This document shows positions 14,001 to 51,540 of a DNA stretch of 64,000 bases, in pieces. Source of the stretch: a virus. The notes beneath the pieces were generated by a model. The model was given only the letters and a program-made list of their open reading frames with translations, had not been told where the DNA came from and did not search any database. The stretch's first letter is position 1; every line of letters starts with the position of its first letter. The translations under genes were made by a program, and so were the position numbers. Location of the stretch: the IMG/VR virus record IMGVR_UViG_3300045988_133913, positions 2,382 through 66,381 of that record, one strand, 5' to 3'.

Positions 14001-17000
14001 TAGCAGCCTGCCGAAGAAAGTCCGCGCTGTGCTGGAGCGTATCTGGAACGCGCTGCGCAACGGCATGGCGGCTGTCTCGATGGCGTTGGCGGTTCACCTC
14101 GGCTCAAGTATGGTCGTCAGCCAGCCTGCCGAAGCCGCGAACCTCACTCCGCAGGCAGGCGAGGTGGTTATGAGCAGCGCTGCCAAAGCGTCGCTAGACC
14201 ACATCATCGACACCGCCGACAACGGTGGACGCCCGTTTGTGATTGCCGACAAAAAGGCGGGCAAGCTGTACCTGATGAACGCCGAGGGCAAGGTGGTGGA
14301 CACCACTCCGGCGCTGTTTGGCAAGACGCCTTCCGACGCCGCGAAGACGGCGGGTGCTACGGGTGCGGGCAAATACGACCTGACCTACAACCGCGACACC
14401 CGTCTGCCATCCGGTTACGCGGGCAGCGTGCAGTCGTTCGACACCGGAGCAAATGGCGAGCAGTTTGCCATCCACCGTGTTATTGACGTCAAGGGGCAGA
14501 ACCGTCAGAGCCGACTGGATAGCAAGACCGTCCGCGACAACCGCATCACGCTTGGTTGTATCAACGTTCCGGCGGAGTTCTACGACGCCCACCTAGACAA
14601 CGAGCTAGGCGCGGTGCTGTACGTGTTGCCGGAAACCGCTAACTGGGGTGGCGACCTGTATGGCAAGACCCCCCGTCAGTCTGCACAGCCGACGCCACAG
14701 GCGGTTAAAATCGCAACCGAGGGTACTTCCCTTACCCCAGAGCAGTTACTGGCTGCAACGCGCTCTCAGGCGGATAATCTGATAGCGAACGTACGTGGCA
14801 ACATGGACAACGCCAGCTACCAGCCTGTGCAGGTAACACCCGAACAGTTACAGGCGGCGACGGAAGCCGGGCGGAAGGTAACGACCCAACCTGTGCAGGC
14901 GCAAGCGCCCATCCAGATTGCGGGCGTCCAGCCGTCCACGCAGACCGCCTATATCAGTCCGGTCATGGTAAACGGTGTATCCGCTAACACCCTTGTCGTG
15001 CCGTTCGAGGCGCATACCCCTGCCGAGATGCAAGCAAATGGCGTGTTCGACACACAGCCTGTAGGTAACAAGACCGAGAGTGGGGATAGCCTGTACACCA
15101 TCGCGTCGTGGCTGGCTGCCGCGTTCGCTGCGGGCAAGGTGAATAGCCGTCGCAAGAAGCGTCTGGAGAGCCGCAAGAAAGCCAACGAGGAACGGTTGGC
15201 GCGGATTGAAGCGAAGAACAATCCAGAGCTGAAGTCTGAACCGGAGGACACTTCCGTCGTTCCAGACGAAGCCGAGGTGGAAACCGCCGTCGCCGACAAC
15301 CACGACGTGCAGGCAGCCTTTGCGAAACAAGCCGGTACACACAACCCGCAGACGCCGCTGTCGCAGGCGGTCGCGCAGGCTGTGCGCCAGCAGAACGTGC
15401 TGGAGAATAAAGCCGATTGGATTCATGCATTCGCGATGCGGTATTCCAGCGATGAGGCGCAGTACCAGCAACTGCTCGCCACGATGGGCAATTTCGAGTA
15501 CAACCTCGGTGGTGTGCTGACCGACCGCTCTTACACCCAGAGTGGTGACTTCCGTGACCGCAGGCGCTGGCGCGGCGACCAGACTGATGCAAGCCGTGTG
15601 GGGATGTTGCAGGCGTTCATGCGCTTCGCAGGCGGGGCGACGGTTGCGTTCGATAATCTGTTGCACCGTGTCGGGTCTGCCGCGTTCGGACACGAAGCCG
15701 ACAGCGCCATCGCCAGCAAGATGCTCTCGCAGGTACGCGCCAAGTCGTCCGGGGCGTATGCGCAGCTACACAAGACGCTCATCCACCCACTCGTCATGCA
15801 GACCGCCACGCTTGCCAGCCAGATGCGTCGGGGTCACGGCGAGATTGAAATCGACACCGGCAGAACCGCCACGCTGAACCACATCCTCAACGAAGGCGCG
15901 GAGCAGATGTGGAAAGGTGCAGAGCTGGAAATCGCCAAGATGAAGCTGGACTTGCAGGAGGTGGAAGCGCAAATCCGTTCTACCGCTGCCGGGTCGCAGA
16001 TTCAGCAGACGTGGACGAGCAAGCAGTTGCAACTGCTGAAGGACATCGAAGCCGCCCAGACACTCCTAGACCGCCAGCGCGATATGTACTACGGGCGCGA
16101 GGAGTGGGACGGCACGACTGACCTGCCGGGTGGTTACACCGAGGCGCAGGCTAAGACCGAGCTGCAAGCGCTCAAGGATAAATACGGGGAAGACTTCGCC
16201 AAGATTGAAGCGCACAGCAAGGAGCTGGTGCAGACCATTCAGGGCATCCGCAACTTCGCCGCCGCTGCTGGGGTAGTAACCAACGACCAGCTAGCGATGT
16301 ACAACGAGATGGGCTTCAAGGAGTACGTACCGCTGTATTCGCCGCAGGAAGATGTATCCAAGACTGACGAAAGCATCAGCATCATGCAGACCTCCCGCAT
16401 GGACAGACTGCTGGAAGGTATCCCGCTGGCACAGGCGAAGTCGATGGGGCTGACCCGCGACCTCTCCCGCTTTAAGCGTAAGGGCGCAACCAGCCCGGCG
16501 GAAGACGCTTATACCAACATGAAGGTGTATGCGATGAACACCGCAGGACGTGTGGGGCAGCAGGGCTGGTTGCAGGCGGTGCAGCAGCTCTACGAAGGCA
16601 CAATCGGCAAGCCGTACTCCGTGGCGGGTAACCTCGGCGAAGAAACGCTAAAAGAGCTGAACAGCCAGCCGGAAGGCAAGCTGCCGGGGCTGATTCGTGT
16701 GCGTCCGGGTATGGAGGATTACCTGCCTGCCCACTTGCAGACCGCCATCGCAGCACCGGGTGGACGCATCCGCGCTATCCGCGCCAAGGGCTACAACAGC
16801 GCAGGCGAGCTGGTGGACTACCACTACTACTTCACGGACAAGGCAATCCAGCAAGAGGTTTACTACACCTCGGACACCAGCGAGAGCTTCATGATGCGTA
16901 TCGGGCGCAACGCCGGGACAATTACCCGGTTCGCCGCGCGGATGATGACTACCTTCCGCCCCGTCTGGAACGTGTACAACTGGGTGCGGGACAGCATCGA

Positions 17001-30923: not shown

Positions 30924-31703
30924 CTAGGCAAATTTAACTTCACGCAGGCTATCGCGCCATACCTTTTCGGCAGTCGACACGCTACGCCAACCTACACTAC
31001 CCAGTTCGCCTACGTTAAACATTGCCCACGCTCCCGTCCCATTACCATGCGCAATCGCTTCCGGTTTTACGTCGTATGCCCACACTCTGCCGTTACTATC
31101 CATAGCGATAAACTTCGCCCATTCTGGAAGGACAAGTTCAGCACCGTAGTAATCCCGCACAAGACGACTTCCGTCTCCAAGTCGCTCGCACTTCTCCGCC
31201 TCAACATAACGCATCGCCACTTGACACATCTTTACACCCAACGCTGAAAGGAAGTTATCATCTGCCACACTCATTACGCCAGAATGTTTATAAAAAGCAT
31301 TCCACTGCTGATTTAGTGCAACAGGTGTATATGGCTTGCCCAATATGGACGGCAAGGAGTTCATGATGTTACATAAGGCTGTCTCCCTTGAGATTACATC
31401 CTCATTCGCCAGCGTATACTCAATGGCTATTTTGGTTTTGAGGTCAAGCATCCAGTCCTGCCCGTCGTCTTTGCAGCAGGTCAAGGTATCCTTCCAGCTT
31501 TCGCCGTCATTAAACCGGACTACCGCATCCAAGCAGGTAAGCGCGGCTCCATGCCATATCTTTCTGGCGTCCAAACAGTATGGTTCGCCAAGGAACGCAA
31601 AAATCTCACCGTCGGCGTTGGCAGCGATATATGACGCATGGCGTTTAACCTGCAAGATGCGTCCATAAAACAGGACGTTTTTGAAGTGTTCATTGATTTC
31701 CAT
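30924..31703 (-). CDS. hypothetical protein, paralog family A member 1
   Basis: 259 aa. It aligns end to end with 36408-37142 (ESWKDTLTCC / ENWKDTLTHC, VRDYYGAELVLPEWAKFIAM / VKDYYGADLIVPTWARFIAM, WRDSLREV / WRDSLQEV). Confidence 0.6.
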   Translation of the reverse strand: MEINEHFKNVLFYGRILQVKRHASYIAANADGEIFAFLGEPYCLDARKIWHGAALTCLDAVVRFNDGESWKDTLTCCKDDGQDWMLDLKTKIAIEYTLANEDVISRETALCNIMNSLPSILGKPYTPVALNQQWNAFYKHSGVMSVADDNFLSALGVKMCQVAMRYVEAEKCERLGDGSRLVRDYYGAELVLPEWAKFIAMDSNGRVWAYDVKPEAIAHGNGTGAWAMFNVGELGSVGWRSVSTAEKVWRDSLREVKFA

Positions 31704-33473: not shown

Positions 33474-33691
33474 CGTTTTTCTCCGTTTACATCGTCAAGG
33501 GCTTGCTGATAGCCTGCCCGAAATGCCATCCACGCCAAGTTCACCCGGTAGTCCCGGAACGTCACGCTCTTACTGGTAGCGTTGAGGTCGTAGTTAAACC
33601 TGAACCGGTAGGCGTTTTTGTAGGCATTCACCTGTTGCTGCCATGCTAGGAAGCGGTTGGCGTAGTGCAGATTGTTGATATTATTTCTCAC
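33470..33691 (-). CDS. small hypothetical protein coupled to the DNA polymerase gene
   Basis: GTG 33691 overlaps the polymerase TGA (GTGA) and has a GGAG SD 8 nt upstream. 73 aa. Confidence 0.35.
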   Translation of the reverse strand: MRNNINNLHYANRFLAWQQQVNAYKNAYRFRFNYDLNATSKSVTFRDYRVNLAWMAFRAGYQQALDDVNGEKR

Positions 33692-35721
33692 AGATATTTC
33701 TCCGGGTGTACCGTGAATAACTTGCCGTAATTCCTGCCGACGTCCACCTCGCAGTCGAGGACGCCCTGCGGAAACCACGGCGGACTGGTTTTCATTGCGC
33801 GGCAATGGATAATCGCCGCTGCCGCTGCGTCCCGCTCCGGCACGACTGATACCCACTCGTCATGTACGTTCAGGTTTATCGGCACGCCTGCTTTGGCGAT
33901 TTCCAGCGCTTGCCATTTGAGAATGTCAAATGATTGTTTCTGCACAAGATTTTCCGATAAGGCGCTTCCCCAGATGCGCTTACTCAGCATCCCTCTGCCT
34001 TTCATCTGGTCGTACACATAGTTTGTTTTACCTTCCTCATCGGCTTCTCGGCGCAGGTTCTGATACCAGATGCGTGTGCCGTTCGGGAACAGGATAGAGG
34101 GAATAACTACCCCGTGGAAGGTGCTTGTGCCGTCGGCGAAAAACATCCGGTCATCTGCACCGCCGAACCACATCTGCTGCCCACCGTACATCACATCCAG
34201 CGCGCGCTGGCAGGTCTTCCAGAACTGGACAATCTTGTGGTTCTTGGTACGGAAAGCCGCGATAAGTTCATCTGCCATATCTGCCGCTTCTTGGTTTTTC
34301 TCCAGTATCATCCGGTACTTAAACGTAGCAGCCGACATACCGTAACCCGCCGCGAGGCAGACGAGCTTGCCCATCTGGCGCATGGCTTTACCTTCTTTGG
34401 ACTTCTCCACCTTCGCCGCGTGCAGGATTTCATCGTAGGTCTTGTGGTAAATCGCTGCCGCCATATCCACGTAGGGGTCGAGGTCGTCCTGAAAGACTTT
34501 TACCAAGTCCTGCTGGTCGGACGCCACAGCGTTTACCCGCAGCTCAATCTGGCTACTGTCCGTCGGCAATACGATATGCCCTTGCTTTGCCCGCATACTT
34601 TGGCGTAAGATTGGTTCTTTAGAACGCTTCGATAGGTTCTGCCAATTACAGGCTTCACCTCCGCCGAAGCGCCCTGTATGGGCAGCGGCGTAGGAAAGGT
34701 AAATCGGCGCAAGCCCCCGACTCGCAATATCCAGAAACGTCTGGGTGCGGGTCGCTTCCATACTGGACTGTGCGCCTAGTTTGGTTTCAACCAGCAACTG
34801 CACCGTTTCATCGTCATGGTCTTTGAGAGCCAAAAATTCTTGGTCAGTCTTGCTTACCGCAGGAATTAGCTGTTTCTTTTTCTCGCTCCACTTCATCGGG
34901 CAATCCACACCCAGATTTTCCAGCAGCTTGACGAATTTCGAGCTGCTACGCAGGTTCTTGTGCAAGTCATCGAGGTCGGTAAAGCCTAGCACCGCTGCCA
35001 GCTCGGACAACTTTTCCTGCCGCTCTGCTTCCAGCCGCACGGCGTAGTCTTGTAGCAGCGGCACGTCGAGGTCGAATGCGGGCTTTGTCCACATTTTGGT
35101 CGTCAGGTCGCTCATCAGCAGCTCGCTCACCTGACACATGGGCAGCATATAGCTGTAAAGCTCGTAGCCCAAGTCGCTGTCGAGTATGCAGTAGTCGCCG
35201 TAGGCTTGCCACTGCGCCTCGGTCATGTCGTCGGCGTGAACGCCTAACATATCGTGGACAGTCCCGCGTTTCTGCTCCGCTACAAGCCCCTGCGCCTGCA
35301 TCCAGCCGGACAGTTTAGCAAGGCTCTTACCGCCTGCTACGCGGTCTAGCGCGGACAATTTCGCCATGATAACGGTGTCCACGGTGAACAGCGGGTGGAC
35401 GTTGTAACGCAGTCCAAGAATGCCTTGGTCGAAGGTGCAGTTGTGGGAAATAAACGGTGAAGTTTCATAGGCTTGGACTAATTCTTTGATATAAGGTAAC
35501 CCTTCTTCCCTACGGTAAAACTCGGCAGGGTTGCTACCGACCTTTATCGAAACTCCAATCATTTCAAACTGGTTGCAGCGGATATACTTCTCCGTAGTGA
35601 TTTTTGACAGAGAATAATCCTTGTCGTAGTAGGTTTCAAAGTCTATGACGATGGGCAATCCCCAGTTGATTTTGGACGGGTCGCGGTAAAGGTCAGTCGG
35701 GGTCATTTGTTTTCTCCTCAC
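33688..35721 (-). CDS. family A DNA polymerase with 3'-5' exonuclease domain
   Basis: The exonuclease site is PIVIDFETY. Pol motif A is PTDSSQIELRVNA, motif B is RQMGKLVCLAAGYGMS and motif C is NLNVHDEWV. 677 aa. Confidence 0.85.
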   Translation of the reverse strand: MRRKQMTPTDLYRDPSKINWGLPIVIDFETYYDKDYSLSKITTEKYIRCNQFEMIGVSIKVGSNPAEFYRREEGLPYIKELVQAYETSPFISHNCTFDQGILGLRYNVHPLFTVDTVIMAKLSALDRVAGGKSLAKLSGWMQAQGLVAEQKRGTVHDMLGVHADDMTEAQWQAYGDYCILDSDLGYELYSYMLPMCQVSELLMSDLTTKMWTKPAFDLDVPLLQDYAVRLEAERQEKLSELAAVLGFTDLDDLHKNLRSSSKFVKLLENLGVDCPMKWSEKKKQLIPAVSKTDQEFLALKDHDDETVQLLVETKLGAQSSMEATRTQTFLDIASRGLAPIYLSYAAAHTGRFGGGEACNWQNLSKRSKEPILRQSMRAKQGHIVLPTDSSQIELRVNAVASDQQDLVKVFQDDLDPYVDMAAAIYHKTYDEILHAAKVEKSKEGKAMRQMGKLVCLAAGYGMSAATFKYRMILEKNQEAADMADELIAAFRTKNHKIVQFWKTCQRALDVMYGGQQMWFGGADDRMFFADGTSTFHGVVIPSILFPNGTRIWYQNLRREADEEGKTNYVYDQMKGRGMLSKRIWGSALSENLVQKQSFDILKWQALEIAKAGVPINLNVHDEWVSVVPERDAAAAAIIHCRAMKTSPPWFPQGVLDCEVDVGRNYGKLFTVHPEKYL

Positions 35722-35999
35722 GGTCTTCTCGCCAATAAATTAACTCCCCATGACAAATCTTCTGCCACGACTATCTCCATGCCTAGCACCATACTAAGCT
35801 CTGCGTCAGCCGCAACGGGAGGGTCTATCTCCATGCACAGCGCTTGGTAAGTAGCTACGTCTAGCACTATATGGGTAGGTTCTTTACCGATGCGGCGCAT
35901 ATAGTCATTACGTGCAGAATCAAATTTCTTCAATAAACTTTGTAATGTGCCTTTGCTAAGGTCTATATGTTGGTTCATGACTGTTTCTCCGTTATTCAT
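35718..35999 (-). CDS. hypothetical protein
   Basis: 93 aa with an ATGA overlap. Confidence 0.45.
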   Translation of the reverse strand: MNNGETVMNQHIDLSKGTLQSLLKKFDSARNDYMRRIGKEPTHIVLDVATYQALCMEIDPPVAADAELSMVLGMEIVVAEDLSWGVNLLARRP

Positions 36000-36411
36000 C
36001 TTCTATCGGGTAATGACGAAGGGTGTTGATAACATCGTTGTCAACGCCCGGCTCAAACGTACCGATACGCACGGCATCTATTTCATAGCGCTGCGGGACT
36101 ACCCATACCCCGTGCTGTTCTTCTGGCTCTATCGGGTAGCTGAACACGCTCCCGTCGTCATCGGTTGCCACCCACTCATGGTCTGAGGGAATGCTGATTT
36201 TCACGCCGTAGTAATTGACTACCCGCGTAGAGCGGTGACTAAAGTGTCTGTGTTTCATTGTTCTCTCCTTCGCCCCATGCAATGGGCAATCACGAGTAAT
36301 CCACCAGTAACTTCCATCTGCTCCCTGCCCATGATTGTTGTCGAGTACGGGGCAGGTGCAGCCTTGTTCGATTGCTTCATCGCTGCCGGGATTTGGTATT
36401 GTTGTGTTCAT
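35992..36411 (-). CDS. hypothetical protein with N-terminal CxCP...WW...CPxHG zinc-ribbon-like motif
   Basis: GCTCPVLDNNHGQGADGSYWWITRDCPLHG, 139 aa. Confidence 0.45.
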   Translation of the reverse strand: MNTTIPNPGSDEAIEQGCTCPVLDNNHGQGADGSYWWITRDCPLHGAKERTMKHRHFSHRSTRVVNYYGVKISIPSDHEWVATDDDGSVFSYPIEPEEQHGVWVVPQRYEIDAVRIGTFEPGVDNDVINTLRHYPIEDE

Positions 36412-37142
36412 ACCCGCACCTCCTGAAGGCTATCTCGCCAGTTTGCTATACTTGTTGACTCATCCCGCCAAGCGACCTGCGCCACGCGACCTCTACCCAT
36501 TGACGACCAAGTTTGGGTAGATTTATCAGTAACGATATTGTCTGGCTTAACTTCGTAACACCATACGGCGCCGCTTATCTGCATAGCAATAAACCGCGCC
36601 CATGTCGGAACGATAAGGTCAGCACCGTAATAGTCTTTGACTATGCGAGATTCTGGTTCTTTATGTCTAGCAAATAATCGGTTATACAATTCTTTAGTAA
36701 AATCCTCATCCTGTAGAAACTTCGATACTGCGTGTTTCATCCAACTGTCCCATGTAGCTTGCAAAGTATTACCTTCAGCCCGATAAGATAGGGCGTCCGC
36801 AAGGCTGTTAAGTTCGAGTTCTTTCGCCTCGCTTTGGAGTAGCCCAATCACGTGCAAATTCCACGCCTGCTCCAGTTTGGCAGCCTCCTCAATCATCCAT
36901 TTCTGGTCGTGCGGGCAGTGGGTAAGGGTGTCTTTCCAGTTCTCGTCTTCGAGTTTTGCGCGGGCGTCAATATTCCAAATCTCCCCGCCCGTCACATCCC
37001 ATACGCTACCGATAACGCATGGTTCATCCGTGAATGCCGTAATTGTTCCGTCTTTATCAACAGCTAGCCAGTTAGCATTAACATTGATACGTAGGGCATT
37101 ACCGTAAAACATCACGGTCTTATAAGGTGTTTTAAGTTTCAT
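36408..37142 (-). CDS. hypothetical protein, paralog family A member 2
   Basis: The start was moved to ATG 37142 (MKLKTPYK...), which forms an ATGA overlap with the upstream membrane-protein gene. It aligns with 30924-31703. Confidence 0.55.
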   Translation of the reverse strand: MKLKTPYKTVMFYGNALRINVNANWLAVDKDGTITAFTDEPCVIGSVWDVTGGEIWNIDARAKLEDENWKDTLTHCPHDQKWMIEEAAKLEQAWNLHVIGLLQSEAKELELNSLADALSYRAEGNTLQATWDSWMKHAVSKFLQDEDFTKELYNRLFARHKEPESRIVKDYYGADLIVPTWARFIAMQISGAVWCYEVKPDNIVTDKSTQTWSSMGRGRVAQVAWRDESTSIANWRDSLQEVRV

Positions 37143-37426
37143 TTCTCCATCTCCCGTATAACAGCCGCACTGACAGAAAGCACAAACTGTAATAAAGCAA
37201 CCGCAATCCACACCTCCGGCACAGTCACTATGCCGATAGTGTTTATTAACAATACGCCGATAACCGAAATAACACCGCCAATCATCCGCGTACTTGGATA
37301 CGGTCGCTCCGTAAACACAATCGCCTCCACTTCTTTGTGAAACGTCCAAAGCAAACAGCCTACGGCGGCTACCAGTATCGCCACATCAAACGCTTGCACC
37401 CATAAAATGGTATATGATTCGTTCAT
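37139..37426 (-). CDS. small integral membrane protein
   Basis: 95 aa with three hydrophobic segments. Confidence 0.45.
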   Translation of the reverse strand: MNESYTILWVQAFDVAILVAAVGCLLWTFHKEVEAIVFTERPYPSTRMIGGVISVIGVLLINTIGIVTVPEVWIAVALLQFVLSVSAAVIREMEK

Positions 37427-37563: not shown

Positions 37564-38211
37564 TCAAGCCATTCTCTGTGCAAAAGCTATTGCAGCTTCC
37601 TTACTAGAAAAGCACAAGCCTCTGCTAAGCCGGTATTTATCGTCATCAATATCTAGCCATTGCGTTTCATAATAACCGTCGTCTGCCGTAATATCAGCGT
37701 AATAATAGCGTTCTCTCATACGGACGCCCGGAAGAAAGTTTACTATACGCATCCAACGGTCAAGCAATACTTTCTCTATACCCTTAGTCCGTATGCTACG
37801 CAATGCTTCTCTGCATTGCTCCTCAATATCATCCGAATATACACCTTTTCGTATCGACTCCCACAAGAATGTGTCTTGATATTGACACAACTCATCTAGC
37901 ACAGCGCTAGGGATTTTGTATCCTTTATTGTGGTGCTTGTATAGGGCGACATAAACACTAGCGAAGTAATTAAAAGTGCCTTTGTTATCACTATCGGTTA
38001 CTAGCTCGATGAGTTTAGCGTAACCCGCAGCGCTTTTTCTTTGCCGCTCTGCCGCTTCTTTTTTAGCCGACGCTAGTTCTTTTTTAAGTGCTGATATTTC
38101 TCTTGTAAGAGTTGCTACTTCTTCTCTAAGACTCTCAATTTCTCTCATAGTCTGTTCGTGTGGGTCAAATGCGCTTCTATAAAGTCTTTCGTCGTCTTCC
38201 CAAGTATTCAT
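37564..38211 (-). CDS. hypothetical protein, family B member 1 (shared C-terminal module), low GC
   Basis: The C-terminal YYYADITADDGYYETQWLDIDDDKYRLSRGLCFSSKEAAIAFAQRMA is conserved in two neighbouring genes. GC is ~40%. Confidence 0.55.
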   Translation of the reverse strand: MNTWEDDERLYRSAFDPHEQTMREIESLREEVATLTREISALKKELASAKKEAAERQRKSAAGYAKLIELVTDSDNKGTFNYFASVYVALYKHHNKGYKIPSAVLDELCQYQDTFLWESIRKGVYSDDIEEQCREALRSIRTKGIEKVLLDRWMRIVNFLPGVRMRERYYYADITADDGYYETQWLDIDDDKYRLSRGLCFSSKEAAIAFAQRMA

Positions 38212-38231
38212 AAGTTCCTCGGCTAAATTAA

Positions 38232-38369
38232 TTATTTACGTTTCCAGAACATCGCGTCGGTCAGTAGGGCGATGCCCGCGAAAGCTATCGCGAACACCGC
38301 ACATACCAGACTAAAGCACAGGCTGCCGATGAACCAGTCCCATGCGTGGGAAAGGATGAAGTCAATCAT
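38232..38369 (-). CDS. small hydrophobic peptide (45 aa)
   Basis: MIDFILSHAWDWFIGSLCFSLVCAVFAIAFAGIALLTDAMFWKRK. Its ATG overlaps the upstream stop (ATGATTGA). It is too short for the track. Confidence 0.3.
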   Translation of the reverse strand: MIDFILSHAWDWFIGSLCFSLVCAVFAIAFAGIALLTDAMFWKRK

Positions 38370-39009
38370 CGTGAAGCATCCTCTTGGCGCGGGCTACCGC
38401 CTCATCCTGTGAGAGATACACCAGCCCACGGCGGAACAGGCGAACATCGTCAGCATCGCCTTCCCACTTGAACTCACGGTAATACCACGTCTCACATGGT
38501 ATGGGGACGTAGTATGCCTGCCCGATACGCAGCGCATCTTTTAGGTGGGTTTCTTGTTCAGGCTTTGCTGCTGCGGTAGCGTCTACTTTCGTCAGGAAGC
38601 ACTTGTTGCGCTTCAGGTGGGTAACGTTCACCGGGTTGCCTGTCCACTCCCACTTGGCGTACCGCTCCGGCTTATCCGGTTCAGGCGTGTAGTAGGTCGG
38701 ATACATAGCGAATATGCACAGAAGCCCTTGCACGCGCGCCAGATGCTCATATAAGCTCTCGTAATAGCGCGTCGTACCATCCGGGGATTCCTCCAGCATA
38801 GCGGTAATGACCGGGTGCATCACGCCCATCGAGACGGACGTCGTGAAGAACCGGGGAAGCCCGCGTTCTACGCACATACGGATAATGAGTTGCTGTTTGT
38901 CTGCGTTGGTGCGAATATCGTCTTTCAGTTTATCCCACAGGGATAATAATTCCTTCGGGGTATATTTGTTAATACCTAGAAAAAGGCTGTAAATATGTTC
39001 TTCAGTCAT
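38362..39009 (-). CDS. hypothetical protein, family B member 2
   Basis: The start was moved to ATG 39009 with a GGAG SD. The C-terminal AYYVPIPCETWYYREFKWEGDADDVRLFRRGLVYLSQDEAVARAKRML matches the family motif. Confidence 0.55.
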   Translation of the reverse strand: MTEEHIYSLFLGINKYTPKELLSLWDKLKDDIRTNADKQQLIIRMCVERGLPRFFTTSVSMGVMHPVITAMLEESPDGTTRYYESLYEHLARVQGLLCIFAMYPTYYTPEPDKPERYAKWEWTGNPVNVTHLKRNKCFLTKVDATAAAKPEQETHLKDALRIGQAYYVPIPCETWYYREFKWEGDADDVRLFRRGLVYLSQDEAVARAKRMLHDD

Positions 39010-39721
39010 GATTAACTCCGTTGTATTTGTGGATTGCGCCGAACCAATTATGTGCTCCCAAAGAAAGCACAATGGAAGGGATTAGTTTGTTGTTAATGAG
39101 ATAGCCCCAGACGTATTCGTCGTCGTAAATAATGCCGTCTTTCTCAGCAAGGGTTTTTGCCCCGTAAACAAAAAGGTGCAGGAATTCGTTGGCTAGACGT
39201 GTCGGCACAACCCACGTGCTGCCAGAAAGCCGCCCGCCAGACTCGAAAAAGGTCGCGACGTAGTCGGCGAACTCGTACTCCCACGCGCGCGGAACAGTAG
39301 GGGTTTGTTCTACCTTGCCATACCAGCGAAGCGCTGCAAAATCAACCCATGCTGTATGGGTGGCTTGGGGATAATTATCTGCGGCGTTGGTGACAAATAG
39401 CGCCTTCAACCACATCATCGCGATGTATGGCATAGTCAGCGGCTCTTGTACCGTTTTATCTGCGTACTTCTCGGCGATTACTTCCGCCACTCTCTGCACC
39501 TCGCCTTCCAGCGAAGTGTCGATGTACGCGGGTGTCTCCCTGCCTTCCAGCAGTTTTTCGATTTCTGGCTTCAACGCCTCGCTGGTGTAAACCGTCATCG
39601 GGTTGTCCAGCTCGGCTAGCGGTTTGAACCGCTCCAGATACCACGGCACGGAACGCTCGTCCGTACCGGGCAAACCCTTCCAGCCAATATCGAAAAAGGC
39701 TGTGACAATATGCGGTTTCAT
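39002..39721 (-). CDS. hypothetical protein
   Basis: ATG 39721 with an ATGA overlap, 239 aa. No motif recognised. Confidence 0.45.
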   Translation of the reverse strand: MKPHIVTAFFDIGWKGLPGTDERSVPWYLERFKPLAELDNPMTVYTSEALKPEIEKLLEGRETPAYIDTSLEGEVQRVAEVIAEKYADKTVQEPLTMPYIAMMWLKALFVTNAADNYPQATHTAWVDFAALRWYGKVEQTPTVPRAWEYEFADYVATFFESGGRLSGSTWVVPTRLANEFLHLFVYGAKTLAEKDGIIYDDEYVWGYLINNKLIPSIVLSLGAHNWFGAIHKYNGVNHD

Positions 39722-40614
39722 ATCATGCCCTTTGCCCAACGCACAGCAGTTTCGCTATGGAAAAAGCACAAGCCTTTTGTGAATCGGTGCTGGTCGATTG
39801 TGTCGCCTTTCCAAGTAGTACAAATTGGTCGGTCATCTTCGGTAATTGCGGCGAAGTAATACAAATCGCCGGGCTTAATCTGCGCAGCAAAGCAAACCAT
39901 GTTGTACCACTTCTTAGCCAGTCGTTCGTTGTAGTCCACAAGTTTGTCCACAAGCTGCTTGCATTGGTCATACACCGCTTGTGGGTAACAGTTATTCAAG
40001 ATGGCGGTGCGGACAAACTCCGCCTGCTTGCGCTTAAACAACTCTGCGGCAGCGTTGCGGTCAGCCTCCGGCAGGCGGTTATCATGTAGATAGCAAAACC
40101 AATATGCCAAACTGGAAAGTTCGGGTTGGTCGTTGGTACGCAATCCACAGTACAGTTTTTGGAATATTCTTTCCTCCGGCTTCTGGCTGTTAAACGCTTT
40201 CAGGAATTTCTTAAATGGTTCAATCCTAGCAAAAATAATTGCTCCCCGATTAGGAATGTCCTGAACAACCTCCCATACCGTGTAGCGGCACTTCAACCCG
40301 GCAAGGCTGTGCAATTCCTCGTGCATCTTTTGGACTTCATCGACAAGCCGGGTGCGTTGCAACTCATACTGGGCGCGGGTTTTCAAATCTTCAGCACAAC
40401 CCGGATGGTAATAACCCTCGTGAAGCAGTTTGTGCAGCACGGCAGGAAACTTAAAATGCACCAGCGCGGCTTTCAATTCATTAGCTGCGCTGTGTTCTCC
40501 GGTCGCTTTCAGCTCTACTGCTACCTGTGTCAAAGCCCACCAGAAATTCAGCGGGATTATCTGGGCTTCTTCTACCGCTCTATCTAAGCGTGATTTCAGT
40601 TCTTTAACGTTCAT
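39718..40614 (-). CDS. hypothetical protein, family B member 3
   Basis: ATG 40614 (MNVKEL). The track start at 40632 is a TTG. The C-terminal LYYFAAITEDDRPICTTWKGDTIDQHRFTKGLCFFHSETAVRWAKGMI matches the family motif. Confidence 0.55.
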   Translation of the reverse strand: MNVKELKSRLDRAVEEAQIIPLNFWWALTQVAVELKATGEHSAANELKAALVHFKFPAVLHKLLHEGYYHPGCAEDLKTRAQYELQRTRLVDEVQKMHEELHSLAGLKCRYTVWEVVQDIPNRGAIIFARIEPFKKFLKAFNSQKPEERIFQKLYCGLRTNDQPELSSLAYWFCYLHDNRLPEADRNAAAELFKRKQAEFVRTAILNNCYPQAVYDQCKQLVDKLVDYNERLAKKWYNMVCFAAQIKPGDLYYFAAITEDDRPICTTWKGDTIDQHRFTKGLCFFHSETAVRWAKGMI

Positions 40615-41014
40615 TACCTTTCTCCAAATCAATTAACCACTCCAGATATTGCTTTGCTTTCTCCAAGTCACGCACGCCACCTTTTTCTTTGTAGCGGGCG
40701 AGGTATTTAATTATGTTCCCCCGCAGGAAGCCCGCGTATTCGGCGGGCGTTAGCCAGCTTCGCAGTAGGTCAATAGGCTGCGGGTTCATCTTGATATAGT
40801 GGTCGCCGCCAACCTGATGGCGCGGTGATTTTTCCGCGAGGCGCTTCATTTTCTCTTGTTCAATAATAACCTCTACGGCTTTAGTAAAACCTTCCTCGCG
40901 TTCATCCAGATATTCTTCAGTCAAGTCTTCGTGCGATGTCTCGGCAAGGAAATTCCTGTATGTTCTGGCTAGCGCCCTCACCCCTTCGCGGGCGAGCTCA
41001 TCGTAGTCTTTCAT
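40604..41014 (-). CDS. DUF3310-like phage protein
   Basis: The core QVGGDHYIKMNPQPIDLL...FLRGNIIKYLARYKEKGGVRDLEKAKQYLEWL matches a motif common in phage DUF3310 proteins. Recognised from memory. Confidence 0.45.
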   Translation of the reverse strand: MKDYDELAREGVRALARTYRNFLAETSHEDLTEEYLDEREEGFTKAVEVIIEQEKMKRLAEKSPRHQVGGDHYIKMNPQPIDLLRSWLTPAEYAGFLRGNIIKYLARYKEKGGVRDLEKAKQYLEWLIDLEKGNER

Positions 41015-48802: not shown

Positions 48803-49330
48803 CTACGCCATCATGTCGCAGCGGTCGGCAAGTCTGCCGCTTGTGGCGGCATCCACCATCGCGCTCACCGCGTGGCGCACCGCGTAGTCAGCGTCGTCGC
48901 GGATGTCGCAATAGTCGCGGCGACGGTGTGGGTACTTGGCGAGCTTGTCGCGCAAGGCGCACGTCGCGGCAACCGCGCAATCGCGTAGGACGCGGCGCGC
49001 GCCGGGGTAGCTACCGGCACTATACGCGCACGCCAGCGCAAGCGTCTCAAGCGGCAGACGGCACAGCTCCAGCCATGCCGCGTCATAGGCGCGGGTTGCC
49101 AACAAGGAAGCGTCTGGCGCGTCTGCGGCGGTAAGGTCTGCGACGCGCCACAGGTTCGCCTGTGCGTCGAGGTCGTCGGCGAGGTCGCCAATTTCGCTGG
49201 CGAGGTTGTCGGCGACGTCAGCCGCCAGCAGGTTATGCGGGCGCGGCAGACGGTCGAGGTGCGCCGGGTTAAGGCTCTTTTGCAGAGCATCAAGGTCTGC
49301 GATGGTTTTGGGTTGGGTTTGATTGCTCAT
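48803..49330 (-). CDS. hypothetical protein
   Basis: 175 aa, Ala/Asp/Leu-rich. It is the most upstream gene of the compact early cluster. Confidence 0.45.
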   Translation of the reverse strand: MSNQTQPKTIADLDALQKSLNPAHLDRLPRPHNLLAADVADNLASEIGDLADDLDAQANLWRVADLTAADAPDASLLATRAYDAAWLELCRLPLETLALACAYSAGSYPGARRVLRDCAVAATCALRDKLAKYPHRRRDYCDIRDDADYAVRHAVSAMVDAATSGRLADRCDMMA

Positions 49331-49345
49331 TTTTGACTCCTTTTA

Positions 49346-49366
49346 TACTTTTGTTAGGGGTTGATG
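49346..49366 (-). promoter_or_regulatory. conserved upstream element, copy 4
   Basis: - strand sense: CATCAACCCCTAACAAAAGTATAAAAGGAGTCAAAA then ATG. Confidence 0.35.
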
Positions 49367-49372
49367 CGTTTG

Positions 49373-49412
49373 TATCGGATAGCACCCGGAATAGTATGGA
49401 TGCTATCCGATA
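49373..49412. repeat. 12-bp-arm inverted repeat (TATCGGATAGCA / TGCTATCCGATA)
   Basis: A perfect inverted repeat with a 16-nt spacer, just upstream of the copy-4 element. Confidence 0.5.
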
Positions 49413-49471
49413 CAAGCTAGCCGTGGTTTGTGGTTTAGGGTGGCTAGCTTGCATCGCGTTGTGTCGTCTGA

Positions 49472-49506
49472 TACTTATATAAGTACAGGCTGGCGACGTT
49501 GTCGCC
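49472..49506. promoter_or_regulatory. AT palindrome (TACTTATATAAGTA) followed by a GGCGAC-GTT-GTCGCC hairpin with a 3-nt loop
   Basis: Seen directly. Confidence 0.3.
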
Positions 49507-50344
49507 GTTAGTGTTTTATGCGTCGTCTTTGTTGGCGCATTTCAGACATTTACAATGGCTTCCGCAGTCTTTTTCAGCAGTTACATTCACCATTTTCAGT
49601 CTATTCCGCGTGCCGGTACGTTTCGTTTTGTGTCCTTGCCAGCATCCGCGTCATGTAGTGGTTCGCGCGCTATCGTATGCACGCGGCTACATTCTTTACC
49701 GTTTCCCGCTTGCTACTTTGCTAAGGTAGCGCGCTTGTTACGTTTTCCCCTATTGTTAAAGATTGCGCCTTGCACCCGGATGAGGCTAGCGCGAGGTTAA
49801 TTCCTCAATGTATCCGATTTTTCGTGCAGCGGATAGTAGCTGCCGTGCATATTGTTTAGGTGTTAGCACTTGCCTTTGCAAGGTATGGCACGTTGTGTTG
49901 TTGTGCATTGCCTTGCTTGATGCCAGCGGCTCGCCGTAAGGCTCGCTCGCTGTATGGGGCGCATTATAGCGGTTTGTGGGTGGCTTGTCAATAGGCAATC
50001 TTGTTTTTTGTTGATTGCTTATTGCGTGATGATAGGTTGTTGGCAACCATATCAGCATCGCGCCGCCGTCATATTGTTACCGCTATAACGTCGTCCTGTT
50101 TGATTACGGTAATGCCTTTGTCGTGCCAACGTTGAAAACTATTTAGATAACATACAGATATTGGAAAACGTTGAAAGAGTAGAAAAGGATTGGCGACGGA
50201 TTAGCAGCGCAAAATTGTCGGCGAGCGGGAAATTTTTGGCGGATTGTTGTCCTTATATATTGTGCGCAGACGGCACCAACTTTTGCACGCGGTTTTGTTG
50301 TCGCCGTTTTTGTACGCTAACTTTTTCGAGCCGTCGTTGTGTTT

Positions 50345-50359
50345 TTGCTTTTGTTGCCG
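50345..50359. promoter_or_regulatory. second GC hairpin with a GTT loop (TGCCGC-GTT-GCGGCA)
   Basis: Seen directly. Same architecture as 49492-49506. Confidence 0.3.
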
Positions 50360-50369
50360 CGTTGCGGCA

Positions 50370-50560
50370 GTTTGCGACGGATTTTGTCAAGATTAAGATT
50401 TTGAAATGTTAAATGCTGAATTTTGTTAGGTAGTAGGATTCATGCGTAGTTAAGATGGATTTTGAAAAAAAATTGAATTCAATACACAAAATCTTGAATA
50501 TCTTAAATCGGAAAATTAAGGTATTGATTTTGTTCACATTTAATAGCCGAATCTTGAAAA
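50370..50560. repeat. iteron-like array of (G)AT(T/C)TTGAA repeats
   Basis: gattttgt, aagattttgaaatg, gaattttg, ggattttgaaaaaaaa, aatcttgaa, tatcttaaa, tgattttgt and aatcttgaa give about 8 copies in ~190 bp. Confidence 0.45.
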
Positions 50561-50834
50561 GGGGGGTTTTTTGTTGAATCAATATTTTATTTGTTGATTA
50601 TATATAATCCCGAAAAAAACCTGTTTGTTTTGACTATATTAAGATTGGCGATGTTAATTAACATCGGGATTTTGGGGGTTCGGCGAAAGAGAGAGGGGTT
50701 TTGTGATTGTGGGATTATTTGCACGGGCGAAAAATGATGGCGGGGTTTTTGGGATTGCACGGCGCGCAAAAAGATATTACCAAAACATGGACAACTCATT
50801 AAAACCAAAAAGGTCGAAAAAAGGAAAAAAGGGG

Positions 50835-50878
50835 GTATATATATATATATTCAATATATTATTTTTTTTTTTTTTTTT
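50835..50878. repeat. (TA)7 microsatellite followed by a T18 homopolymer (DNA-unwinding-element-like)
   Basis: tatatatatatata ... tttttttttttttttttt is visible directly. Confidence 0.8.
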
Positions 50879-51399
50879 AGCCGATTTTTTCCTCTCCCTC
50901 CTGCTGCTGTTGAATGCCGCCGCCGCCCGCAACCCCCTGTTTTTTCTAGGGTTTTTTATTTCCAGTCAATATAAATCCACATAACATTATTATTGTACAA
51001 TGTTGTAAACATTATTTGTTCAACATTTAAATCTTAACAAAAAAACCATCAACATTTTCAACACGTCTCGAAATTTATTTGCAATCCTCGAAATTCCGCT
51101 TCACGTCTACGCTTCGCGCCCCTCAAAACATTTCTGACGTGTTAATTAACATTTCCCGATTTTTTATTGACAACATTAACCTCAAATTATGTTGGTAACA
51201 TTATTCGTTATTCCAGATAATCCAATAATTCAGCGCCGCAAATGTTATTTTTCGCCGCGCTTTTCCTCGCCATTTCCGCCTGCCGTTTTACGTCATGTTC
51301 AATACTTATTAACACCCTAGTATAATTTAACGCTAATCAATCTTTGCATCTTGATAACCACGCCGCCACCTATCATCCCAAACCGAGATGATAACGTAC

Positions 51400-51540
51400 C
51401 GTGAATTTCGTGGGGCGAGGGCGTCGAAGGGGCGGAGTTGACGGGGGGACCCCGGGACTTGGACACGTGGAGTCGAGGGGGGCTGGGTGAATATATACCC
51501 ACCCCCGCAGACCACCTGCCCCTCCCAGAAATCTAAGGGA
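51400..51540. other. G-run-rich block (potential G-quadruplex/structured region)
   Basis: ggggcgagggcgtcgaaggggcggagttgacggggggaccccgggac...gaggggggctgggtg...cccacccccgc. Includes a CGGGG-GGA-CCCCG 3-nt-loop hairpin. Confidence 0.35.

What the first reader, a model, noticed from the sequence alone, without database searches (positions are those of the whole stretch)
37564..40614. Three-member early-gene family sharing a ~50-aa C-terminal module (YY.A.IT.DD...W..D..R...GLCF...EAA....A..M)
Genes 37564-38211, 38362-39009 and 39718-40614 have unrelated N-terminal regions. They end with a clearly alignable module: YYYADITADDGYYETQWLDIDDDKYRLSRGLCFSSKEAAIAFAQRMA, YYVPIPCETWYYREFKWEGDADDVRLFRRGLVYLSQDEAVARAKRML and YYFAAITEDDRPICTTWKGDTIDQHRFTKGLCFFHSETAVRWAKGMI. 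The architecture looks like modular effectors or adaptors with a common targeting or interaction domain. One member sits in a low-GC island. Such diversified early-gene families are typical of host-takeover or anti-defence arsenals. I do not recognise this module as a named domain.
Basis: seen in the sequence. Interest (0 to 1): 0.7.

Follow-up and report, generated by a model that had tools for sequence, protein, structure and literature searches.

The report
Shared phage domain in three genes
Three neighbouring phage genes really do end in the same small (~50 amino-acid) folded domain, which belongs to a large phage-only protein family that is catalogued but has no name, solved structure or known function.

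Summary
Genes 37564-38211 (g1), 38362-39009 (g2) and 39718-40614 (g3), all on the minus strand, share a C-terminal module. Pairwise BLASTP gives E = 7e-13, 6e-6 and 1e-4. A profile built only from other phages finds exactly four copies among 1,236 window ORFs.

Two refinements:
- g1 and g3 share about 100 residues, not 50.
- g2 carries a second, degenerate internal copy.

The module is not private to this phage. An exhaustive search finds 631 clusters (50% identity). Most are ~130-aa proteins with the module at the C-terminus. Some are stand-alone, some are tandem repeats, and some sit in arrays of up to five adjacent genes. It corresponds to PHROG 18768 ("unknown function"). It has no Pfam or NCBIfam model, and its confident AlphaFold2 fold (beta-hairpin, helix, strand, helix) has no PDB neighbour.

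Relatives show head-swapping chimeras, loss or disruption of g1, an imported g3 allele and a DUF3310 fusion. All three genes are under purifying selection (dN/dS 0.13-0.28).

Best reading: a non-enzymatic binding domain on exchangeable accessory proteins co-transcribed with replication genes. Host takeover or anti-defence is plausible but untested. This is a new member of a catalogued, uncharacterised family. Interest is moderate.

The parts
37564..38211 (-). g1, 215 aa. It has a coiled-coil head (aa ~8-70), a helical middle region and the C-terminal module. GC is 42%.
   Evidence: ORF. Weak coiled-coil Pfam hits at aa 8-70. Orthologue P0003 is 79% identical. Present in L014, L015 and L017; absent in L013 and L016. 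dN/dS 0.13.
37567..37722 (-). g1 module core (RMRERYYYADIT...AFAQRMA).
   Evidence: Independent family HMM iE = 2e-20. AF2 pLDDT 93 with E24-28, E36-40, H45-52, H60-70. Translation checked.
37570..37878 (-). g1 aa 112-214, the ~100-aa stretch shared with g3. It includes an extra helix (EKVLLDRWMRIVNF) in front of the module.
   Evidence: BLASTP E = 7e-13. The helix at residues 2-18 of the 71-residue AF2 model of g1 aa 145-215 (g1 aa ~146-162) is modelled confidently.
38362..39009 (-). g2, 215 aa. It has a helical head followed by two tandem modules.
   Evidence: ORF. Orthologue P0004. 84-98% identical in five relatives. dN/dS 0.28.
38563..38703 (-). g2 internal, degenerate module copy (YPTYYTPEPDKPERYAKWEW...LTKVDATAAAK).
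   Evidence: HMM iE = 2e-10 with the independent profile. iE of 3.7e-14 to 1.4e-13 in all five orthologues. BLASTP against the g1 module E = 0.005. AF2 did not model it (pLDDT 31-42) because the alignment gave it no coverage.
38371..38544 (-). g2 C-terminal module copy.
   Evidence: HMM iE = 2.8e-20. phrog_18768 E = 2.4e-4. AF2 pLDDT 92-96 with the same E-E-H-E-H pattern.
39718..40614 (-). g3, 298 aa. It has a helical head (aa 1-~155), a middle region shared with g1, and the module.
   Evidence: ORF. Orthologues are only 55-59% identical while flanking genes are 82-98% identical. Window versus relatives: dS 1.2-1.8 against 0.04-0.37 for the flanks, with dN/dS about 0.25.
39721..39882 (-). g3 module.
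   Evidence: HMM iE = 5.7e-16. phrog_18768 E = 0.015.
40604..41014 (-). DUF3310 gene immediately upstream of g3, overlapping it by 11 nt. This domain is also found fused to the module in another phage.
   Evidence: Pfam PF11753 E = 4.6e-15. The fusion ORF L023:695-1348 has DUF3310 at E = 1.1e-16 plus the module at iE = 1.6e-15.
39002..39739 (-). HtrL/YibB-like gene lying between g3 and g2. It is context only and does not carry the module.
   Evidence: Pfam PF09612 E = 7.7e-8. 93-98% identical in relatives.
38232..38369 (-). 45-aa hydrophobic ORF between g2 and g1. Context only.
   Evidence: Conserved at 96-98% in all five relatives, dN/dS 0.03.

Best explanation
SHOWN. g1, g2 and g3 are functional cytoplasmic accessory proteins of a ~66-kb phage related to 'Podoviridae sp. 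ctnCN2' from human-associated metagenomes. Between them they carry four copies of one ~50-residue autonomous domain (beta-hairpin, short helix, strand, C-terminal helix). The family consensus is wkPk.Ge.YYvPd......Y....W..D..D.....RGLVFkTKEEAIA.AKaML. This domain is the conserved core of a large phage-restricted family (PHROG 18768). The family occurs in several forms: stand-alone, C-terminal to variable heads, as intragenic tandem repeats, and as multi-gene arrays. In this lineage the genes behave as exchangeable cassettes. Heads are swapped between relatives, g1 is gained, lost or disrupted, and the window's g3 is an allele imported by recombination. All three remain under purifying selection.

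INFERRED. The near-invariant positions are aromatic, hydrophobic or Gly plus one Asp, with no conserved His, Cys or Ser. The proteins are acidic and have no signal peptide or membrane segment. The domain is therefore most likely a non-catalytic binding 'handle', probably working in multiple copies. It would dock on a partner conserved across very different hosts or phages. The variable heads (coiled coil in g1, helical domains in g2 and g3, phrog_1972 or DUF3310 elsewhere) would supply different specificities or activities. The proteins are made together with the replication and nucleotide-metabolism genes. They most plausibly modulate host or phage factors during takeover, and anti-defence is one possibility.
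For: - Four copies and their significance.
- Fold: AF2 pLDDT 93 for g1 and 92-96 for the g2 C-terminal copy.
- Family size and architecture: 631 clusters at 50% identity with E <= 1e-3. 143 of 161 domains end within 15 aa of the C-terminus, and the median protein length is 132 aa. There are 2-3 tandem copies in 8 proteins. Stand-alone proteins of 60-79 aa exist.
- PHROG 18768 matches 49 of 68 family members.
- Gene arrays: five adjacent paralogues in L019, and two or three in L020-L024 and L026.
- Conservation pattern.
- Charge and hydropathy: module median charge -1, whole proteins median -4, median pI 5.4.
- Operon context: primase-helicase, helicase, exonuclease, ThyA, MazG, DNA polymerase, DUF3310 and RusA on the same strand. 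No excess of promoter or terminator motifs.
- Head swapping: P0005 and P0009. DUF3310+module fusion.
- g1 absent in L013 and L016. It is disrupted by an in-frame TAA in L001 and a 5-nt deletion in L003. In both, an ATG replaces the ATA just before the module.
- g3 allele replacement: dS 1.2-1.8 against flanks of 0.04-0.37.
- Purifying selection: dN/dS 0.13, 0.28 and 0.25.
- In other phages the family sits in nin-like accessory regions, or as an insert between terminase and portal. In the Acidovorax phage AP1, whose record annotates a virion-encapsulated RNA polymerase, it sits near the start of the record (positions 2598-2996).
Against: - No partner, ligand or phenotype is known for any member. 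Every database name is 'hypothetical protein'.
- 'Binding handle' is inferred from the absence of catalytic-looking residues and from the architecture. The conserved residues could all be fold determinants.
- dN/dS gives no sign of an arms race.
- Which half is the constant 'handle' and which is the 'effector' cannot be decided from sequence.
- Expression timing was not tested.
- The stand-alone ORFs in L001-L003 arise from gene disruption and may be decaying genes rather than designed split genes.
Confidence: 0.4

Rival explanations
1. The module proteins are accessory subunits or regulators of the phage's own replication and nucleotide-metabolism machinery. They might work with the DUF3310 protein. 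They would not be host-directed effectors.
For: - They are embedded in the replication operon, directly downstream of DUF3310.
- A natural DUF3310+module fusion exists.
- DUF3310 genes lie a few kb from family members in L008-L010.
- T7 gp1.7, a nucleotide kinase, is cited as a DUF3310 protein (PMC10700055).
- Presence across phages of very different hosts fits a phage-intrinsic or universal partner.
Against: - g1 is dispensable in close relatives.
- Arrays of up to five divergent paralogues are hard to explain as subunits.
- Family members occur in phages with unrelated replication systems and in moron-like positions, for example between terminase and portal in L010.
- Only one fusion was seen.
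Confidence: 0.2
2. The module is a nucleic-acid-binding domain, and the proteins are transcription or replication regulators. This would resemble other domain-shuffled phage regulators such as the KilA-N, Bro-N and ANT families (comparison from general knowledge).
For: - Extensive domain shuffling and tandem repetition.
- Location among replication genes.
- Conserved Arg and Lys around strand 3 and helix 3.
Against: - The modules and whole proteins are mostly acidic: median net charge -1 and -4, median pI 5.4.
- There is no HTH, RHH or other DNA-binding Pfam hit in about 90 members.
- No structural neighbour is a DNA-binding domain.
Confidence: 0.12
3. The module oligomerises into a sponge for a small molecule, such as an immune signalling nucleotide. 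It would then act as an anti-defence decoy in the manner of Tad1, Tad2 or Acb2.
For: - The proteins are small, acidic, multi-copy or tandem.
- Tyr, Tyr, Trp, Asp and Arg are conserved and could line a pocket.
- One subfamily has an N-terminus (MTFKEALIAHLQGEKVE) that recalls the DUF2829/Tad2 N-terminal motif. This is a recollection only.
- A Lar restriction-alleviation gene lies nearby in L010.
Against: - DUF2829 was not detected by Pfam even at E <= 10.
- There is no sequence or fold similarity to any solved sponge.
- No ligand evidence exists.
Confidence: 0.1
4. The similarity is chance or low-complexity, or the genes are decaying duplicates without function.
For: - The g2 internal copy is degenerate.
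- g1 homologues are disrupted in L001 and L003.
Against: - E-values reach 2e-20 with an independent profile, and no other window ORF scores below E = 1.6.
- The fold is predicted confidently.
- dN/dS is 0.13-0.28 across six genomes.
- The g2 cluster (90% identity) has 110 member sequences and the cluster of g3's orthologue P0015 (55% identical to the window's g3) has 60.
Confidence: 0.02

Closest known systems
PHROG family phrog_18768 (phage protein cluster, 'unknown function')
   Same: The module aligns to the C-terminal ~75 positions of this 131-position profile. Scores are g2 E = 2.4e-4, g3 E = 0.015, Acidovorax AP1 4.2e-13 and Shewanella ZP9 5.6e-16. It matches 49 of 68 family members found from the window's module.
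   Different: g1 does not reach the PHROG profile on its own. g1 and g3 have different, longer heads and an extra helix plus a ~50-aa middle region not present in the typical ~130-aa members. g2 has a tandem duplication.
DUF3310 / SaV-like early phage proteins (Pfam PF11753)
   Same: These are also small early or accessory phage proteins. The DUF3310 gene abuts g3 here, and DUF3310 is fused to the module in one IMG/VR phage. SaV is an early, toxic protein that determines sensitivity to AbiV (Haaber et al. 2009, as cited in PMC8306868). DUF3310 proteins were cytotoxic in mycobacteriophage overexpression screens (PMC10700055).
   Different: There is no sequence relationship between DUF3310 and the module. 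The link is by adjacency and a single fusion only.
Domain-shuffled phage accessory families such as KilA-N, Bro-N and ANT (general knowledge, not tested here)
   Same: One small conserved domain is combined with many alternative partner domains. Several paralogues occur per genome, in early or accessory regions.
   Different: Those domains are DNA-binding and have Pfam models. This module is acidic, unnamed and has no detected similarity to them.

Membership tests
PHROG 18768 | Significant match to the phrog_18768 profile HMM | tested here: met
   g2 E = 2.4e-4. g3 E = 0.015 and g1 no hit. All four window copies match a profile built from family members at <= 2e-10, and 49 of 68 of those members hit phrog_18768, with a best E of 1.4e-39. 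Membership is direct for g2 and transitive for g1 and g3.
Any named Pfam-A or NCBIfam domain | Match to a curated model over the module | tested here: not met
   No hit over the module for g1-g3. No consistent hit in 68 family members against Pfam or NCBIfam. None in 25 further members. None among the precomputed Pfam assignments of 107 database hits.
Kunitz/BPTI fold | Three conserved disulfides (six Cys) and significant structural superposition | tested here: not met
NDUFS4 (complex I 18-kDa subunit) | Significant profile match beyond the 'L.F.TKEDAI.FA' strand-helix motif | tested here: not met
DUF2829 / Tad2 (for the N-terminal head of the 'MTFKEALIAHLQGEKVE' subfamily, not for g1-g3) | Match to Pfam DUF2829 | tested here: not met
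   No hit at E <= 10 in ten members. The resemblance was recalled from memory only.
Anti-defence proteins (functional class) | Demonstrated inhibition of a defence system, or homology to a protein with that activity | not testable with these tools
   No homologue carries any name. The only support is indirect: the genes sit in an accessory region, vary in presence, and form paralogue arrays.
Early genes (temporal class) | Transcription in the first minutes of infection, or location behind early promoters | tested here: inconclusive
   The genes lie inside the minus-strand replication operon 22280-49330. The sigma-70 and terminator scan is not above the shuffled expectation. No expression data are available.

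The most novel reading that the evidence does not exclude
The module defines a previously unrecognised, very widespread phage fold used as the common docking domain of expandable arsenals of host-directed proteins, either anti-defence or takeover factors. Each paralogue or head would address a different host target. The arrays (three genes here, five in L019) would then be counter-defence loci comparable in generality to known anti-CRISPR or anti-RM gene clusters.
Probability: 0.2. Interest if true: 0.7.

Novelty: new member of a known kind. Interest (0 to 1): 0.4.

Why it matters
The module marks a large phage-specific domain family: at least 631 clusters at 50% identity, found in podo-, sipho-, myo- and herelle-type phages of Proteobacteria, of Fusobacterium and in a Coprobacillus (Firmicutes) genome bin. 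The family has no Pfam or NCBIfam entry, no structural neighbour and no known function.

The family shows behaviours often associated with phage-host interaction genes. It expands into arrays, swaps heads, varies in presence and is replaced by recombination.

Defining it as a domain would improve annotation of many 'hypothetical' phage genes. It would also give a compact, well-folding 50-residue target for interaction and anti-defence screens.

For this window itself, the result is an ordinary accessory gene family, not a new kind of system.

Tried and rejected
- **Named-domain searches.** Pfam, NCBIfam and PHROG scans of g1-g3, the isolated modules and about 90 family members gave only phrog_18768 and related PHROGs, all of unknown function.
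- **Profile against PDB sequences.** Only a 15-residue NDUFS4 motif at E ~0.6, rejected.
- **DUF2829/Tad2 lead** for the head of one subfamily: no Pfam support.
- **Near-identical DNA in GenBank phages:** none. The DNA polymerase is at most 30% identical to Pseudomonas KPP25-like and Rhizobium phages.
- **Word-indexed protein searches** and cluster names gave no names and no Pfam partners.
- **Genome-collection scan:** only one confirmed locus, a Coprobacillus MAG, because confirmation uses the first sequence only. An earlier attempt failed for lack of a conserved stretch.
- **Literature:** no paper mentions phrog_18768. A general anti-defence catalogue preprint contained nothing specific.
- **Positive-selection idea:** rejected, since dN/dS is 0.13-0.28. 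g3's divergence comes with dS of 1.2-1.8, which points to allele import rather than accelerated evolution.
- **AF2 of full-length g2** to confirm the internal copy: inconclusive, pLDDT 31-42 in that stretch.
- **Promoter and terminator scan:** no signal above the shuffles.
Full report
**1. The observation**

The three ORFs are on the minus strand at the stated coordinates, and the quoted peptides are their C-termini. Orthologues in public data start at the same ATG codons (P0003, P0004, P0015).

Pairwise BLASTP results:
- g1-g3: E = 7e-13 over 103 residues at 28% identity.
- g1-g2: E = 6e-6 over 46 residues.
- g2-g3: E = 1e-4 over 31 residues.

For an independent test I built an HMM from 147 module sequences of other phages, leaving out this phage's close relatives. 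I searched all 1,236 six-frame ORFs (>= 30 aa) of the window with it. It finds four domains:
- g1: iE 2e-20.
- g2 C-terminal copy: iE 2.8e-20.
- g3: iE 5.7e-16.
- a second copy inside g2 (aa 103-149): iE 2e-10.

The next ORF scores E = 1.6.

First, g1 and g3 share about 100 residues. That stretch comprises an extra helix and part of a middle region in front of the module. Second, g2 is a tandem two-module protein. Its internal copy has lost the near-invariant Asp and Gly.

The low-GC statement is also right. g1 is 42.1% GC and the spacer downstream is 37.2%, against 55.5% for the window.

**2. What the module is**

*Predicted fold.* AlphaFold2 on the 71-residue g1 segment gives mean pLDDT 93 and pTM 0.78. 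It shows helix 2-18, strands 24-28 and 36-40, helix 45-52, a short strand near 56, and helix 60-70. The same strand-strand-helix-strand-helix pattern is predicted for g2 residues 165-213 at pLDDT 92-96.

*Family size.* An exhaustive HMMER search of 1.84 billion representative proteins with the module profile finds 631 clusters (50% identity) at E <= 1e-3.

- Median protein length is 132 aa.
- 143 of 161 domain hits end within 15 residues of the C-terminus.
- Some proteins are stand-alone modules of 60-79 aa.
- Eight proteins carry two or three tandem copies.

*Consensus.* The family consensus is wkPk.Ge.YYvPd......Y....W..D..D.....RGLVFkTKEEAIA.AKaML. The nearly invariant positions are Tyr, Trp, Asp, Gly, Leu and Ala.

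*Database status.*
- There is no Pfam or NCBIfam model over it.
- PHROG 18768 ('unknown function') covers it. That profile matches g2 (2.4e-4), g3 (0.015) and 49 of 68 family members.

*Distribution.* In the viral structure library the matches are uncharacterised proteins. They come from Podoviridae sp. ctnCN2 (298 aa and 215 aa, the sizes of g3 and g2), Acidovorax ACP17, Fusobacterium Fnu1, Delftia PhiW-14 and many metagenomic phages. Cultured phages of Shewanella, Acidovorax, Proteus, Morganella, Providencia and Acinetobacter also carry it. In every case it is annotated 'hypothetical protein' or the stretch carries no annotated feature. No source gives any member a name.

**3. Context in the window**

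The genes lie in a long minus-strand block (about 22.3-49.3 kb). That block encodes:
- a primase-helicase;
- a helicase;
- an exonuclease;
- thymidylate synthase;
- a MazG-like pyrophosphatase;
- DNA polymerase;
- a DUF3310 protein;
- a RusA-like resolvase.

Neighbouring genes overlap or abut. A sigma-70 promoter and terminator scan shows nothing above shuffled expectation. Co-transcription with the replication genes is therefore likely. 'Early' timing is not established.

The proteins are acidic or near neutral, except g3 (pI 8.5). None has a membrane segment or signal-like stretch.

**4. Comparative evidence**

Five IMG/VR contigs of 13-66 kb (two of ~66 kb) share the neighbourhood; the DNA polymerase is 97-98% identical in three of them and interrupted by an insertion in the other two.

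| Gene | Pattern in the five relatives |
|---|---|
| g2 | 84-98% identical |
| g1 | Present in three (81-94% identical), absent in two |
| g3 | Only 55-59% identical; flanking genes 82-98% |

Nei-Gojobori estimates show that the window's g3 differs from its orthologues at dS 1.2-1.8, compared with 0.04-0.37 for the flanks. Its dN/dS is about 0.25. The allele was therefore imported by recombination rather than driven by positive selection. Overall dN/dS is 0.13 for g1, 0.28 for g2 and 0.25 for g3, against 0.06 for the polymerase. All three are functional genes under purifying selection.

*Head swapping is real.*
- P0005 joins a g3-type head to g1 residues 63-215 (52% identity).
- P0009 joins a phrog_1972-type head (41% to the neighbouring gene 36408-37142) to g3 residues 154-298 (54% identity).

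*Disrupted g1 homologues.* In more distant metagenomic relatives the g1 homologue is broken. L001 and L002 have an in-frame TAA. L003 has a 5-nt deletion. In both lineages the ATA codon just before the module is an ATG, so the module can still be made as a 67-71-aa protein. This is suggestive, but it does not prove selection for the module alone.

*Gene arrays elsewhere.* The family forms arrays in other phages. L019 has five adjacent paralogues that are 27-40% identical over their full length. L020-L024 and L026 have two or three.

*DUF3310 fusion.* One ORF, L023:695-1348, fuses DUF3310 (Pfam E = 1.1e-16) to the module. In the window the DUF3310 gene directly precedes g3.

*Positions in other phages.* In temperate siphovirus-like contigs the family sits in nin-like accessory regions. 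In one case it lies between terminase and portal.

**5. How it most likely works**

*Shown.* The module is a compact, autonomous, non-membrane domain. It is present in multiple copies, attached to interchangeable heads, on dispensable and exchangeable genes that are nonetheless under purifying selection.

*Inferred.* No His, Cys or Ser positions are conserved, and the proteins are acidic. The module is therefore most likely a binding domain rather than an enzyme or a DNA binder. Tandem copies and the g1 coiled coil suggest that it acts in multiple copies. Its spread across phages of unrelated hosts suggests a partner that is universal or phage-borne.

I give 0.4 to the model of a common docking handle with variable heads on accessory proteins made alongside the replication genes. 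Within that model, a host-takeover or anti-defence role is plausible but untested.

Rivals:

| Rival | Confidence | Main points |
|---|---|---|
| Accessory subunits of the phage's own nucleotide or replication machinery | 0.2 | Supported by the DUF3310 link |
| Nucleic-acid-binding regulators | 0.12 | Disfavoured by charge and the lack of DNA-binding signatures |
| Small-molecule sponge | 0.1 | No homology; the DUF2829 lead failed |
| Chance similarity or decay | 0.02 | Refuted by the statistics and dN/dS |

What is known about DUF3310 comes from the literature. SaV of lactococcal phages is an early, toxic protein that governs sensitivity to AbiV (Haaber et al. 2009, as summarised in PMC8306868). 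DUF3310 proteins are cytotoxic in mycobacteriophage screens and are linked to the T7 gp1.7 nucleotide kinase (PMC10700055).

**6. Comparison with what is known, and verdict**

The closest known entity is PHROG 18768, a catalogued but uncharacterised family. g2 is a direct member. g1 and g3 are divergent members with an added helix, an added middle region and different heads.

The module is not a Kunitz domain, not NDUFS4-like, and not any named Pfam or NCBIfam domain.

The modular-architecture reading is supported. The 'early host-takeover or anti-defence arsenal' reading remains a hypothesis. The would-refute condition, that the module is 'a common known domain with described function', is half met: the domain is common, but it has no name and no described function.

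Novelty: new members of a known (catalogued) kind. Interest: moderate (0.4). It is a good candidate for a new domain definition and for functional screening, but it is not a surprising kind of system.

Noticed in passing
window 30924-31703, 35992-36411, 36408-37142 (all minus strand): A second multi-copy module family, phrog_1972-type, with a 'YYG..I.vP..a.WiA.D.dG.v.ay' motif. There are five copies in three genes. BLASTP between copies gives E from 1e-6 to 2e-47, and the PHROG match reaches E = 1e-23. Relatives carry an extra paralogue where g1 is missing. P0009 fuses this module to the g3 body.
   Followed up: partly
window 36408-37349 (minus strand): The mechanical ORF starting at TTG 37349 is probably over-extended. 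Relatives and L003 start at MKLKTPYK, which is ATG 37142. That start overlaps the stop of a 95-aa hydrophobic ORF at 37139-37426.
   Followed up: partly
window 38232-38369 and 37139-37426 (minus strand): Two small hydrophobic, probably membrane, ORFs are interleaved with the family. The 45-aa one is 96-98% conserved in five relatives (dN/dS 0.03). The 95-aa one is 68-76% identical (dN/dS 0.67).
   Followed up: partly
window 39002-39739 (minus strand): An HtrL/YibB-like protein (Pfam PF09612, E = 7.7e-8) lies between g3 and g2. It is 93-98% conserved in relatives. Its role in a phage replication operon is unexplained.
   Followed up: no
window 8068-18762 (plus strand): A giant 3,564-aa ORF with no Pfam hit at E <= 1e-3. 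It is possibly a virion-associated giant protein of this podovirus-like phage.
   Followed up: partly
L014:13194-16286 and L015:6915-9958 (relatives), compared with window 33688-35721: In two relatives the DNA polymerase match is split by an insertion of about 0.8-1.1 kb. The window's gene is uninterrupted. The insert could be an intein or a homing-endonuclease element.
   Followed up: no
L001:984-986 and L003:~735-745: g1 homologues in distant relatives are interrupted by an in-frame TAA (L001) or a 5-nt deletion (L003). Both have ATG in place of ATA immediately before the module, which creates a separate 67-71-aa module ORF.
   Followed up: yes
L023:695-1348 (IMGVR_UViG_3300045988_120157): A natural fusion of DUF3310 (aa 5-59) with the module (aa ~153-211). 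In the window the DUF3310 gene (40604-41014) abuts g3.
   Followed up: yes
window ~49300-51400: The lowest-GC kilobase of the window (37.7% at 50001-51000). It lies just beyond the upstream end of the minus-strand replication block, where large ORFs thin out. It may be a promoter or origin region.
   Followed up: no
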